Positions 1 through 1,086 of a stretch of DNA of 1,086 nucleotides are shown here, piece by piece. The position numbers and the translations under genes are program-made. This DNA comes from Escherichia coli (GTDB taxonomy: Bacteria; Pseudomonadota; Gammaproteobacteria; Enterobacterales; Enterobacteriaceae), in the NCBI RefSeq assembly GCF_003334815.1, contig NZ_QOWO01000107.1; one strand, written 5' to 3'. Numbering within the stretch: the stretch's first letter is position 1; the number at the start of each line of letters is the position of its first letter. The notes beneath the pieces were generated by a model. It made no database searches and was not told where the DNA came from. It worked only from the letters and a program-made list of their open reading frames with translations.

Positions 1-68
1 TTCGCCAGGAACGACCGGAACGCGGCATCATGCGGCGTGGGCGTTGTGGTGTTTTTCTTCTTACTCAC
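1..68 (-). CDS. hypothetical protein, 5' end only (continues past the left window edge); N-terminus MSKKKNTTTPTPHDAAFRSFLA...
   Basis: GTG start at 68..66 preceded by GGAGG (77..73) with a 4-nt spacer; the start overlaps the TGA stop (67..65) of the upstream gene as GTGA; frame stays open to the window edge (22 codons); the initiation region and first ~19 codons are homologous to the start of the 65..580 gene. Not in the ORF track because it is truncated by the window. Confidence 0.5.
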   Translation of the reverse strand, partial: MSKKKNTTTPTPHDAAFRSFLA

Positions 69-77
69 GGTTCCTCC
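51..77. repeat. 27-bp direct repeat, copy 1 (gtttttcttcttactcacggttcctcc); on the minus strand this is the SD plus GTG start of the 1..68 gene
   Basis: 25 of 27 nt identical to 563-589; weaker homology continues into both downstream coding regions. Confidence 0.8.
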
Positions 78-580
78 ATCAAATCAGCAGCATCGCAGCA
101 ATCATCGTCCAAATCCCCACAACCAAGAGGACAGCAATTGCGATCAAAGCCGTGACAACAATAGCCACGTTCTGCGTCACGGCGTATTTCTTCTGCAATC
201 TCTTCAGCGGAAAGGTAATCAAACTCCTCACGGGCCAGTTCCAGGACCAGCAGATGTTGTTCTGTCGGCAATGTAGACACAAAATTATCAATAGCAGCAC
301 TCAAACGTCGCTGATATAGCTCATAAACAAGACCACAACGGTGCATTAGTTCTTCGGATAATAGTTCCAGTTTTGAGCGAACGCTGTCAGCATTGAAAGT
401 GACTTCATCAGATGACATCTGAAAATCTTTGTCAGTGTCAAAACAAGACTTCATTTTTATCTCCTGCCCGTCCGGGCCCTGAATGAAAGAAAACCTGTTT
501 CCCTTCTCTGTTTTTTTATGGAACAGGAGGAATCCGGTACCATGCGACATAGACGTCATGATGTTTTTCATCTTGCTCAC
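65..580 (-). CDS. hypothetical acidic protein, 171 aa from GTG at 580 (alternative internal ATG at 454 would give 129 aa); Cys-rich C-terminal tail GYCCHGFDRNCCPLGCGDLDDDCCDAADLMEEP; no family recognised
   Basis: Long open frame (part of the 65..676 track ORF); GGAGG at 589..585 then 4 nt then GTG at 580..578; this initiation region is duplicated at the next gene; CTG/GAA/CGT-rich codon usage; roughly 34 Asp+Glu against 19 Lys+Arg by my count; stop TGA at 67..65. The track start at 676 is rejected: it has no SD and overlaps the upstream gene. Confidence 0.6.
   Translation of the reverse strand: MSKMKNIMTSMSHGTGFLLFHKKTEKGNRFSFIQGPDGQEIKMKSCFDTDKDFQMSSDEVTFNADSVRSKLELLSEELMHRCGLVYELYQRRLSAAIDNFVSTLPTEQHLLVLELAREEFDYLSAEEIAEEIRRDAERGYCCHGFDRNCCPLGCGDLDDDCCDAADLMEEP
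73..77 (-). promoter_or_regulatory. Shine-Dalgarno (GGAGG) for the 1..68 gene, embedded in the last codons (M-E-E-P) of the upstream gene
   Basis: GGAGG then AACC then GTG, with the GTG overlapping the upstream TGA as GTGA. Confidence 0.55.
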
Positions 581-589
581 GGTTCCTCC
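563..589. repeat. 27-bp direct repeat, copy 2 (gtttttcatcttgctcacggttcctcc); on the minus strand this is the SD plus GTG start of the 65..580 gene
   Basis: 25 of 27 nt identical to 51-77; differences at repeat positions 8 and 13. Confidence 0.8.
585..589 (-). promoter_or_regulatory. Shine-Dalgarno (GGAGG) for the 65..580 gene
   Basis: GGAGG then AACC then GTG; sits inside the duplicated 27-bp element. Confidence 0.55.
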
Positions 590-644
590 TGGTAAAGTAC
601 CTGAACATATCCTGCCACCTGCACAGACAGACGGCAGGGGGTAA

Positions 645-911
645 TCAGTGGCAGACCCGTTCAATTTCAAGCGCACGGAGCAGGTGCCCCCACTCGCTGA
701 CTTTCATGGCGGGGATACGCACCCGCTTCCGCTCACTGCAGCGTCTGGCGATATGACCGCCCATCGCCAGGACGTCCGGGTTAATCTCATCCGGTGCCAG
801 TTCCTGGCGTCTGAAGCGGGTATGGCGGTGCAGGGGTTTGTTCTCCCGCAGGCACTCTTCACGCAGACGCTTTACATATTCAGCCGTTGCAAAGATAATT
901 GATGGTCTCAT
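645..911 (-). CDS. hypothetical small basic protein, 88 aa (MRPSIIFATAEYVKRLREECLRENKPLHRHTRFRRQ...ERVCH); Arg-rich, possibly nucleic-acid binding; identity unknown
   Basis: ATG at 911..909 preceded by GGAG (923..920) with an 8-nt spacer; stop TGA at 647..645; Leu codons are CTG-dominated on this strand (6 of 8) versus CTC-dominated on the mirror plus-strand ORF; about 15 Arg + 4 Lys against 12 Asp/Glu. The track extends this ORF to 1007 (120 aa), but the extension crosses the terminator hairpin and uses rare AGG/ATA/CGG codons. Confidence 0.5.
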   Translation of the reverse strand: MRPSIIFATAEYVKRLREECLRENKPLHRHTRFRRQELAPDEINPDVLAMGGHIARRCSERKRVRIPAMKVSEWGHLLRALEIERVCH

Positions 912-919
912 GGCATAAT
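911..919 (+). promoter_or_regulatory. candidate extended -10 element (TGgCATAAT) on the plus strand
   Basis: TG at 911-912, one nt, then CATAAT at 914-919 (5/6 match to TATAAT); no convincing -35. A transcript from about 926 would end at the 979-1004 terminator. Sequence pattern only. Confidence 0.2.
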
Positions 920-923
920 CTCC
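920..923 (-). promoter_or_regulatory. Shine-Dalgarno (GGAG) for the 645..911 gene
   Basis: GGAG then 8 nt then ATG at 911..909. Confidence 0.45.
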
Positions 924-942
924 ATAGTTCGTGAATGAGATG

Positions 943-969
943 CCGGACTTCCGTACGGGGAAGCGCCGG
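943..969. promoter_or_regulatory. imperfect palindrome / inverted repeat upstream of the small basic gene; candidate operator or RNA stem
   Basis: CCGG-a-CTTCC-GTACGG-GGAAG-cg-CCGG: outer CCGG (943-946 / 966-969) and inner CTTCC (948-952) / GGAAG (959-963) arms around a GTAC core; lies 32-68 bp upstream of the ATG at 911. Confidence 0.3.
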
Positions 970-978
970 CAGAGAAAG

Positions 979-1004
979 GCAGGGTTTATCGCCCTGCTTT
1001 TTTT
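979..1004 (+). terminator. intrinsic (rho-independent) terminator hairpin, strongest on the plus strand; possibly bidirectional
   Basis: Stem GCAGGG (979-984) / CCCTGC (992-997), 7-nt loop TTTATCG, then T7 run (998-1004); an A-rich tract upstream (973-977) could extend the stem. On the minus strand the same hairpin is followed by the weaker tract CTTTCTCT. Confidence 0.6.
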
Positions 1005-1086
1005 CATTCCGGACAGCGACGCAGTGCCAGCGCGAGCGCTTTCATCTTCCAGCCTTCCGGCGTGCGGTACATCACCTTCCAGTAGC
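1004..1086 (-). CDS. 3' end of an unidentified gene entering from the right edge (C-terminus ...YWKVMYRTPEGWKMKALALALRRCPE, stop TGA at 1006..1004)
   Basis: Frame open from the window edge to the TGA, with CTG/GCG/CGT/CGC/CCG/GAA codons; stop is followed immediately by a hairpin. Not in the ORF track because the start lies outside the window. Only 27 codons are visible, so support is limited. Confidence 0.35.
   Translation of the reverse strand, partial: YWKVMYRTPEGWKMKALALALRRCPE

What the first reader, a model, noticed from the sequence alone, without database searches (positions are those of the whole stretch)
64..1007. Overlapping stop/start quartets at gene junctions (GTGA at 65-68, ATGA at 1004-1007)
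The stop of the acidic gene overlaps the GTG of the next gene (GTGA), with the SD for the downstream gene encoded inside the upstream gene's last codons. This is classic translational coupling and supports an operon. At the right-hand junction, the TGA of the incoming gene overlaps an in-frame ATG (1007..1005) that would extend the small basic ORF to 120 aa through the hairpin, so a coupled longer isoform cannot be fully excluded.
Basis: seen in the sequence. Interest (0 to 1): 0.3.

Follow-up and report, generated by a model that had tools for sequence, protein, structure and literature searches.

The report
Two stop/start overlaps: one real, one coincidental
On this plasmid segment one four-base stop/start overlap is a real gene junction, created when a small acidic gene was inserted in front of a nuclease gene, and the other is a coincidence, so the finding is largely ordinary.

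Summary
The window is the leading region of IncI-type conjugative plasmids and is 100% identical to pO26-CRL125. The genes lie on the minus strand in the order ygcA, ygdA (basic, 88 aa), ccgAII (acidic, 129 aa), rpn/ygdB.

Both quartets exist at the stated coordinates.

GTGA (65-68) is a true junction. The GTG is the only possible rpn start, with GGAGGA 5 nt upstream. It is not an evolved coupling device. About 75% of sister plasmids lack ccgAII and use the same start site 64-70 nt after ygdA, with no overlapping ORF. The long form is a 512-bp ccgAII cassette flanked by a 70-nt duplication of the rpn start region. The ccgAII ORF lost the family's normal stop and runs into the native rpn leader. 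It ends at the TGA inside GTGAGT. Coupling is physically plausible but probably optional.

ATGA (1004-1007) is coincidence. The spacer to the ygdA ATG is 95, 96, 97 or 100 nt in relatives. The 32-codon extension is open and in frame in only 4 of 11 loci. The spacer holds two conserved hairpins. Eight of 16 genes in this region end in ATGA or GTGA.

Interest is low.

The parts
1004..1086 (-). 3' end of ygcA (144-aa hypothetical protein of the IncI leading region). Its stop TGA is at 1006..1004.
   Evidence: Annotated CDS L001 7649-8083, named ygcA in LC567089. It hits PHROG 1987, function unknown.
1004..1007 (-). ATGA quartet. The ATG is formed by the last base of the final sense codon plus TG of the stop. 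It is not a used start.
   Evidence: The quartet is conserved in 11 of 11 loci, but the downstream frame is not. No SD lies upstream.
979..1004 (-). Hairpin 1 (stem-loop 997..979) preceded by an A7 run (1004..998). It looks like a terminator on the sense strand (tail CTTTCTCT). On the + strand the same hairpin is followed by T7.
   Evidence: Terminator scan. All 6 stem pairs are invariant in 9 loci. The A-run length varies from 6 to 9.
942..970 (-). Hairpin 2 in the ygcA-ygdA spacer (GCCGGCGCTTCC-CCGTAC-GGAAGTCCGGC).
   Evidence: The spacer folds with z = -3.4 (window) and -4.7 (L002). It is kept in all 9 loci, with G-C to U-G changes at one pair.
645..911 (-). ygdA: an 88-aa basic protein (pI 10.2) of unknown function. 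It starts at ATG 911..909, with GGAG 8 nt upstream.
   Evidence: Annotated CDS. Against L002, 13 of 16 differences are at third codon positions. 1103 and 161 database members are called at 88 aa. No Pfam, NCBIfam, PADLOC or PHROG hit.
611..638 (-). Hairpin 3, directly after the ygdA stop. It is present in both the long and the short forms.
   Evidence: Folds. The second stem pair is C-G (window), U-G (short forms) and U-A (L023) (sequences).
520..589 (-). Left, decaying copy of the rpn start region: SD GGAGGA, GTG at 580..578, and about 20 codons. In this lineage the GTG opens a 171-aa ORF in frame with ccgAII.
   Evidence: Direct repeat D1, 70 nt, 76% identity, spacing 512. BLAST E = 7e-11. 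Frame analysis. It differs from the right copy at 17 positions, 13 of them transitions, with 4 in the first 32 nt and 13 in the last 38.
452..517 (-). Conserved leader module ending exactly at the ccgAII ATG (454..452): two small hairpins plus SD GGAG. It resembles a CUP repeat but lacks the promoter part.
   Evidence: About 82% identical copies occur twice per IncX1 plasmid, in front of unrelated ORFs, each behind a promoter-like site with an inverted repeat.
65..454 (-). ccgAII homologue: a 129-aa acidic protein (pI 4.2, 9 Cys). The model shows a four-helix core plus a C-x-H-G-x4-CCPLGCGD knuckle.
   Evidence: Homologues are named CcgAII, with E down to 1e-45. Alignments. AlphaFold model pLDDT 83. 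Annotated as ccgAII in LC567089 and in PMC3817090.
65..109 (-). IncI-specific C-terminal tail of ccgAII (DDDCCDAADLMEEP*). It lies beyond the family's normal end (GCGDLDDY*). The last 13 nt are the rpn leader.
   Evidence: Alignments. pLDDT is 54-63 in the tail. Homology to short-form plasmids starts exactly at window 77.
65..68 (-). GTGA quartet: the ccgAII stop overlaps the rpn start by 4 nt.
   Evidence: The junction is identical in all long forms inspected and at least 97.5% identical with no indels in the 7 sampled rows of the 516 long-form records.
8..77 (-). Right copy of the 70-nt repeat. This is the native rpn translation initiation region (GGAGGA-N5-GTG) and codons 1-20.
   Evidence: It is invariant in 11 of 11 loci, including the outgroup L023, the most divergent locus (76% identity).
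1..68 (-). 5' end of rpn (ygdB), a 308-aa Rpn-family recombination-promoting nuclease. GTG 68..66 is the only start codon between the upstream in-frame stop and the conserved N-terminus.
   Evidence: TIGR01784 scores 177 bits against a cut-off of 52. Start-codon analysis.

Best explanation
The window carries four co-oriented leading-region genes on the minus strand: ygcA, ygdA, ccgAII and rpn. The GTGA at 68..65 is a genuine 4-nt overlap between the ccgAII stop and the only possible rpn start. It is a by-product of a gene insertion, not an evolved coupling signal.

A 512-bp cassette sits at the 5' end of rpn, flanked by a 70-nt duplication of the rpn SD, GTG and first 20 codons. The cassette holds the transcribed part of a CUP-like leader plus a ccgAII ORF that lacks the family's own stop. 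The ORF therefore reads into the native rpn leader (...ATG GAG GAA CCG TGA) and stops at the first in-frame stop, the TGA embedded in GTGAGT.

Inferred: the rpn initiation region works on its own, because it does so in the majority of plasmids that lack the cassette. In long-form plasmids, ribosomes finishing ccgAII terminate one base from the GTG and can reinitiate. Rpn synthesis there is probably the sum of fresh initiation and reinitiation, so coupling is optional.

The ATGA at 1007..1004 is a coincidence of a ...GAA TGA gene end followed by the A-tract of a hairpin. ygdA starts at ATG 911 with its own SD.
For: Gene identities and ends.

The rpn GTG is the only start codon in the open frame upstream of the conserved TPTPHDA N-terminus.

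SD+GTG are invariant in 11 of 11 loci, including the outgroup L023, the most divergent locus.

In 8 short-form loci rpn starts 64-70 nt after the ygdA stop, with no overlapping ORF.

Long form frequency: 497 of 2045 plasmid records and 516 of 2271. Only two size classes appear across about 1977 records.

The 70-nt direct repeat has 76% identity and a spacing of 512. Homology between long and short forms resumes exactly at the first G of GGAGGA.

CcgAII homologues of 101-106 aa end at GCGDL(DDY)* and sit in IncF, IncFII-type and other leading regions without rpn. The extra tail has low model confidence.

The outgroup L023 has the short arrangement.

The rpn initiation region in the long form is unstructured: z = +2.2. 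Accessibility is similar to the short forms.

Right junction: the spacer is 95, 96, 97 or 100 nt. The extension is open and in frame in 4 of 11 loci, and ygdA starts with GTG and another SD context in L012 and L013. In an evenly spaced sample of 39 plasmids, 25 differ in length from the window by -1, +1 or +4 nt. The two hairpins are conserved. ygdA itself shows third-position-biased substitution.
Against: No expression data were available, so in-vivo coupling, start-site use and operon structure are all inferred.

All long-form junctions are identical, so there is no variation with which to test selection on the overlap.

The direction of the event (insertion or deletion) rests on parsimony from one outgroup and on the aberrant ccgAII ends.

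The mechanism that produced a 70-nt flanking duplication is unknown.

In short forms a small CUCAC/GUGAG stem pairs with the start codon, and this stem is lost in the long form. The insertion may therefore have changed rpn initiation in ways not captured here.
Confidence: 0.8

Rival explanations
1. One reading: the GTGA overlap with an SD embedded in the upstream gene is an evolved, functionally required translational coupling. It would tie Rpn synthesis to CcgAII, and perhaps mark a functional pair such as nuclease and inhibitor.
For: There is a 4-nt overlap and a strong SD 5 nt upstream, inside ccgAII. The junction is invariant in all long forms. Full-length Rpn proteins are toxic and their dosage matters (PMC10327210). 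Overlaps are frequent in this region, in 5 of 14 same-strand junctions.
Against: The same initiation region works without any upstream ORF in about 75% of relatives and in the outgroup. The overlap is forced by stops in both alternative frames of GTGAGTAAG. CcgAII homologues elsewhere are never next to rpn. No masking structure was found.
Confidence: 0.15
2. The long form is ancestral. Short-form plasmids arose by recombination between the two 70-nt repeats, which deleted ccgAII. The overlap would then be old and the autonomous start derived.
For: Direct repeats flanking the segment are what a deletion by recombination would use. The 14-17 nt around the SD and GTG are identical in both copies.
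Against: The outgroup L023 has the short form with the same 64-nt spacer. ccgAII has lost the family's stop and its leader module lacks its promoter, as expected for an incoming cassette. The left copy is decayed (76% identity), while the short-form start matches the right copy throughout.
Confidence: 0.12
3. A 120-aa N-terminally extended YgdA is made from ATG 1007, coupled to ygcA termination.
For: It is in frame and stop-free in the window and in 3 other loci. A few automated gene calls give 119-120 aa.
Against: The frame is broken by 1-4 nt indels or stops in 7 of 11 loci. There is no SD. The spacer forms two stable conserved hairpins. Chance probability is about 0.1. The large database clusters are 88 aa.
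Confidence: 0.03
4. In this window's lineage the acidic protein is made mainly as a 171-aa form, started at the duplicated rpn GTG (580..578). The left repeat copy would then be a working initiation site that was co-opted for ccgAII.
For: The left copy keeps SD, spacing and GTG identical to the rpn site. It is much better conserved in its first 32 nt (4 differences) than in the last 38 nt (13 differences). The frame is open and in phase with ccgAII. In the other long lineage it becomes a 42-codon upstream ORF that ends 20 nt into ccgAII, so ribosomes would still be delivered there.
Against: The 42-aa extension is not conserved as protein, because a 14-nt deletion shifts the frame in most long forms. 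The leader module ends at the ATG in IncX1 too, and that ATG has its own SD. The left site is predicted to be more paired. Family N-termini align near M13.
Confidence: 0.25

Closest known systems
Translational coupling through 4-nt stop/start overlaps (ATGA/GTGA) in bacterial operons, e.g. the trp operon junctions (from general knowledge)
   Same: Same-strand neighbours, a 4-nt overlap, and the downstream SD inside the upstream ORF. A terminating ribosome is placed next to the start codon.
   Different: Here the downstream start site is demonstrably self-sufficient in sister plasmids. The overlap was created by a recent cassette insertion rather than shaped around the pair. No masking structure was found.
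[quoted passage not shown]
   Same: A ccgAII homologue in a leading region. It is preceded by a conserved upstream module that ends at the start codon and recurs before unrelated genes. PMC5371602 reports insertion, deletion and rearrangement within the IncN2 CUP-controlled regulons.
   Different: The promoter and operator part of the module is missing here and is replaced by a fragment of rpn. ccgAII has lost its own stop and carries a 13-aa tail. I compared the module with IncX1 copies, not directly with IncN CUP sequences.
Rpn toxin / RpnS intragenic antitoxin systems (Zhong et al. 2023, PMC10327210)
   Same: The downstream gene is a full-length Rpn-family nuclease with GRME four-residue repeats in its C-terminal region. 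Paralogues are toxic and dosage-sensitive.
   Different: That work concerns an internal start inside rpn. The feature here is at the 5' end. In addition, a separate 73-aa ORF resembling the Rpn C-terminus follows rpn, outside the window.
Intrinsic (bidirectional) terminators between convergent or tandem genes
   Same: A GC-rich 6-7 bp stem flanked by an A-tract and a T-rich tract, directly after the ygcA stop.
   Different: The T-tract is weak in the sense direction (TTTCTCT) and strong in the antisense direction (T7). Function was not tested.

Membership tests
Translationally coupled gene pair (ccgAII to rpn) | Adjacent same-strand ORFs whose stop and start overlap or abut | tested here: met
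   GTGA at 68..65. The GTG is the only possible rpn start.
Translationally coupled gene pair (ccgAII to rpn) | Translation of the downstream gene depends on translation of the upstream gene | not testable with these tools
   This needs reporter fusions or ribosome profiling. Indirect evidence is against dependence: the same start site stands alone in about 75% of relatives.
Translationally coupled gene pair (ccgAII to rpn) | The downstream ribosome-binding site is masked by mRNA structure unless opened by upstream ribosomes | tested here: not met
   The region folds less well than shuffles, z = +2.2. Mean P(unpaired) over -15..+12 is 0.43-0.54, against 0.53-0.61 in short forms.
Translationally coupled gene pair (ccgAII to rpn) | The overlap architecture is conserved across homologous pairs | tested here: inconclusive
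   It is identical in all long forms, with no variation to test. The pair itself is confined to one insertion lineage, and ccgAII homologues elsewhere are not next to rpn.
Extended 120-aa YgdA isoform | The reading frame from ATG 1007 to ATG 911 is conserved in relatives | tested here: not met
   The spacer is 95, 96, 97 or 100 nt. The frame is open and in phase in 4 of 11 loci.
Extended 120-aa YgdA isoform | A ribosome-binding site lies upstream of the start | tested here: not met
   The sequence upstream of ATG 1007 is GCTGTCCGGA, with no spaced SD.
CcgAII protein family | Full-length sequence similarity, including the C-x-H-G-x4-CCPLGCGD motif | tested here: met
   E = 1e-45 to 1e-20 to proteins named CcgAII. 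Invariant residues are C99, G102, C108, P109, G111, C112 and G113.
CcgAII protein family | A demonstrated biochemical or anti-restriction function | not testable with these tools
   PMC3817090 calls it anti-restriction by citation only. There is no Pfam, PADLOC or PDB match.
Rpn family (TIGR01784 / Transposase_31) | Profile score above the curated cut-off | tested here: met
   177.4 bits against a cut-off of 52.1, over residues 12-306.
CUP (conserved upstream repeat) element | A repeated upstream module with a promoter and an ArdK-type operator, placed before several leading-region operons | tested here: inconclusive
   A 66-nt leader is shared with two sites per IncX1 plasmid, which do have a promoter-like site and an inverted repeat. 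The promoter part is absent in the window. I did not compare it with IncN CUP sequences.
Intrinsic terminator after ygcA | A GC-rich hairpin followed by a U-tract | tested here: met
   The pattern scan hits 997..979 on the minus strand. Termination itself was not tested.

The most novel reading that the evidence does not exclude
The duplicated rpn start region may be a co-opted, portable initiation site. It would load ribosomes onto a chain of translationally linked ORFs: an rpn' leader ORF or fusion, then ccgAII, then rpn, then an RpnS-like ORF. The captured ccgAII cassette would then reset the dosage of a toxic Rpn nuclease just after conjugative entry. A further possibility is that the 5' end of rpn is a preferred capture site for leading-region cassettes, perhaps through Rpn's own recombination-promoting activity.
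Probability: 0.08. Interest if true: 0.5.

Novelty: new member of a known kind. Interest (0 to 1): 0.2.

Why it matters
The result matters mainly as a caution. A stop/start quartet with an embedded SD looks like designed coupling, but here it is the automatic result of dropping an ORF in front of a gene whose start reads GTGAGTAAG.

For plasmid biology it documents a common presence/absence polymorphism of ccgAII in IncI-complex leading regions; about a quarter of plasmids have it. The polymorphism is flanked by a 70-nt duplication.

It also shows that the cassette arrived with a conserved leader module shared with IncX1 plasmids. If Rpn dosage matters during plasmid establishment, the insertion could change it. 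That remains untested.

Tried and rejected
NCBIfam, PADLOC, PHROGs and Pfam gave nothing informative for ygdA. For ccgAII they gave only weak PADLOC hits that I judged to be chance.

Rfam at E <= 1 found no RNA family in the window.

A profile search of PDB sequences and a Foldseek search of the CcgAII model against PDB gave no significant match.

I looked for truly divergent YgdA homologues to test the N-terminus. The '62-70% identical' hits were frameshifted assemblies of the same DNA.

I tested whether other rpn genes carry upstream duplicates of their 5' ends, which would indicate a capture hotspot. None did in 4 paralogous loci, nor in L004 and L002.

I tried to obtain per-gene early-conjugation RNA-seq values for the IncI1 plasmid pESBL. 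No supplementary files are held.

I rejected the antisense ORFs on the + strand (37-276, 44-319, 648-902) as shadows of the minus-strand genes.
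Full report
**Where the window comes from**

The 1086 bases are 100% identical to many E. coli and Salmonella conjugative plasmids of the IncI complex (IncI1, B/O, K, Z), including pO26-CRL125 (NC_022996). Related sequence occurs in 2045 plasmid records.

All genes lie on the minus strand. In the annotated copy L001 (pE2863-1) the stretch sits in the leading region downstream of ssb, psiB, psiA and ardA. The gene order is:
- ygcA, 144 aa, ending at window 1004
- ygdA, 88 aa, basic, pI 10.2, window 911..645
- ccgAII, 129 aa, acidic, pI 4.2, window 454..65
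- rpn (ygdB), 308 aa, starting at window 68

The names come from the LC567089 annotation and from Venturini et al. 2013, who describe 'ccgAII adjacent to a transposase' in this very plasmid (PMC3817090). Rpn membership is clear: TIGR01784 scores 177 bits against a cut-off of 52. The acidic protein matches proteins named CcgAII with E values down to 1e-45.

**Check of the observation**

Both quartets are present on the minus strand at the stated coordinates, and RefSeq annotates the same ccgAII/rpn 4-nt overlap.

A quartet by itself carries little information. Eight of 16 same-strand genes in L001 end in ATGA or GTGA, and only three of those have a gene starting there.

**The left junction (GTGA, 65-68)**

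The overlap is real. In the rpn frame the nearest upstream stop lies 18 nt before the GTG. The GTG is the only ATG/GTG/TTG between that stop and the conserved Rpn N-terminus TPTPHDA. GGAGGA lies 5 nt upstream.

Comparison with related plasmids changes the interpretation.
- **Most relatives lack ccgAII.** Only about a quarter of related plasmids contain it: 497 of 2045 records and 516 of 2271. In the rest, rpn follows ygdA after a 64-70 nt spacer, with the same ...CCAGGAGGAACCGTGAGTAAG... start region and no overlapping ORF.
- **The start site is invariant.** SD and GTG are unchanged in 11 of 11 loci. This includes L023, the most divergent locus (76% identity), from a different Salmonella plasmid backbone, which has the short arrangement.
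- **Only two size classes exist.** Across about 1977 records there is a form without the segment and a form with a segment of 498 or 512 bp.
- **The segment is flanked by a duplication.** The repeat is 70 nt, at window 8-77 and 520-589, with 76% identity and a spacing of 512 (E = 7e-11). It covers the rpn SD, the GTG and the first ~20 codons.
- **The boundary falls on the SD.** Homology between long and short forms resumes exactly at the first G of GGAGGA, window 77.

The 'SD encoded in the last codons of the acidic gene' is therefore the native rpn leader. The ccgAII ORF ends ...ATG GAG GAA CCG TGA because it reads into that leader.

The family alignment agrees. CcgAII homologues are 101-106 aa and end at GCGDL(DDY)* with their own stop. 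They lie in IncF, IncFII-type and other leading regions with no rpn nearby. The IncI protein carries a 13-aa tail (DCCDAADLMEEP) beyond that point, and the tail is of low confidence in the structure model.

The rpn start reads GTGAGTAAG, which has TGA and TAA in the two other frames. Any incoming ORF must therefore either fuse to rpn or stop within 8 nt of the GTG. The overlap is nearly unavoidable.

No structure was found that would make rpn initiation depend on upstream ribosomes. The region folds less well than shuffled controls, z = +2.2. Predicted accessibility is similar to the short forms.

My reading is that termination-reinitiation at this junction is physically likely but adds to an autonomous start. 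This last step is inference, because no expression data could be obtained.

**Direction of the event**

Insertion is favoured over deletion for four reasons:
- The outgroup has the short form.
- ccgAII lost its own stop.
- The sequence upstream of ccgAII is a truncated module (see below).
- The left repeat copy is decayed, with 17 differences of which 13 are transitions, while short-form starts match the right copy.

The mechanism that produced a 70-nt flanking duplication is unknown.

**The right junction (ATGA, 1004-1007)**

The quartet is conserved because ygcA ends ...GAA/AAA TGA. The 32-codon path to the ygdA ATG is not conserved.
- In 11 loci the distance is 95, 96, 97 or 100 nt.
- The extension is open and in frame in 4 loci, out of frame in 6, and stopped in one in-frame locus.
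- In L012 and L013, ygdA starts with GTG behind a different SD context.
- In an evenly spaced sample of 39 plasmids, 25 differ in length from the window by -1, +1 or +4 nt over this stretch.
- In the loci I read, the indels lie in the A-run after ATGA (6-9 A) and in the loop of the second hairpin.

The spacer folds into two hairpins with z = -3.4 and -4.7, and both are kept in all nine loci aligned. The first, with its A-tract and T-rich tail, is terminator-like. Read on the + strand it is followed by T7.

There is no SD before ATG 1007, whereas GGAG lies 8 nt before ATG 911. ygdA itself evolves like a protein-coding gene: against L002, 13 of 16 differences are at third positions. The large database clusters are 88 aa.

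The chance of an in-frame, stop-free spacer is about 0.10. The extended isoform is rejected.

**Operon question**

All four genes are co-oriented. No sigma-70-like site was found on the minus strand inside the window, and the junctions are short. Co-transcription of ygdA-ccgAII-rpn is therefore plausible. Whether ygcA belongs to the same transcript depends on read-through of the hairpin at 997..979.

Early-conjugation RNA-seq shows that only some IncI1 leading-region operons are induced from single-strand promoters (PMC12672017). I could not obtain per-gene values.

**What the parts are**

CcgAII is modelled as a four-helix core followed by a Cys/His knuckle (pLDDT 83). It has no match in the PDB by sequence profile or by Foldseek and no Pfam family. 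Its anti-restriction label in the literature is by citation only.

YgdA has no detectable relatives outside these plasmids.

Rpn paralogues are toxic DNA endonucleases held in check by a small C-terminal product, RpnS (PMC10327210).

**Verdict**

The left overlap is a real junction of an ordinary kind, and its origin is a cassette insertion. The right overlap is a coincidence. The feature is a new instance of a well-known architecture, so interest is low.

Noticed in passing
window 452-517 (minus strand); L027 2592-2660 and 3501-3573: The 66 nt ending at the ccgAII ATG form a conserved leader module with two small hairpins and an SD. Copies at about 82% identity occur twice in each of roughly 450 IncX1 plasmids, each ending at the ATG of a different unrelated small ORF. 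Each IncX1 copy is preceded by a promoter-like site with an inverted repeat (TTGCCATACCTGCAAATGCAGGTATAAT). In the window the homology begins where the -10 box ends, so the promoter part is missing. It has no Rfam match. It is reminiscent of the IncN CUP repeats.
   Followed up: partly
window 520-589 (minus strand), GTG at 580..578: The left copy of the rpn start keeps SD, spacing and GTG intact. In this lineage it opens a 171-aa ORF in frame with ccgAII. In the commoner long lineage (L003, L011) a 14-nt deletion turns it into a 42-codon upstream ORF that ends 20 nt inside ccgAII. The first 32 nt of the copy have 4 differences from the rpn copy, and the last 38 nt have 13.
   Followed up: partly
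window 520-589 versus 8-77: Thirteen of the 17 differences between the two repeat copies are transitions. Seven of these are C in the rpn copy against T in the left copy, on the sense strand. This may be a deamination-like decay pattern, or chance.
   Followed up: no
L001 9945-10166 (just left of the window, same strand): A 73-aa ORF directly after rpn (TGATG, 1-nt overlap) resembles the Rpn C-terminal domain (MTIAERL...GLS.EELKK), like a stand-alone RpnS-type antitoxin. Rpn itself has three GRME four-residue repeats, the kind of repeat reported to vary in RpnS. In short-form L002 the next gene is separate and is 66 aa.
   Followed up: partly
window 968-977 and 919-923 (minus strand): The consensus fold pairs the CU-rich tract after hairpin 1 (UCUCU/C) with the ygdA SD (GGAGA), enclosing hairpin 2. 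This could be an anti-SD arrangement. All five pairs are essentially invariant, so there is no covariation to support it.
   Followed up: partly
window 979-1004: Read on the + strand, hairpin 1 is followed by T7, a better intrinsic terminator than in the sense direction (TTTCTCT). It could stop antisense transcription coming from the oppositely oriented HTH-regulator gene beyond rpn (L001 10197-10448).
   Followed up: no
window 611-638 (minus strand): A hairpin directly after the ygdA stop is kept in long, short and outgroup forms. Its second stem pair is C-G (window), U-G (short forms) and U-A (L023), a compensatory series.
   Followed up: partly
window 383-454 (minus strand), ccgAII codons 1-24: The IncI CcgAII N-terminus MKSCFDTDKDFQ|MSSDEVTFNADS looks like a short tandem duplication of the family N-terminus (METFDTDKF...). 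The family's usual start aligns with M13 (ATG 418..416).
   Followed up: no
L031 2489-2492 (Serratia plasmid pSERAS01): Another rpn paralogue starts at an ATGA that overlaps the stop of an upstream recombinase gene. Rpn N-termini begin M/V-(S)-K-K, so an A at +4, and hence an NTGA quartet, is common at rpn starts.
   Followed up: no
L025 2501-2764; L026 100-363 and 923-1047: Database proteins that looked like 62-70% identical YgdA homologues are frameshifted versions of the same DNA, probably from homopolymer errors in assemblies. In L026, rpn is also frameshifted in its A-run.
   Followed up: yes
short forms, e.g. L002 1995-2012: In short-form plasmids a 5-bp stem CUCAC/GUGAG pairs the rpn start codon and displays the SD in its loop. 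The upstream arm is absent before both copies in the long form.
   Followed up: partly
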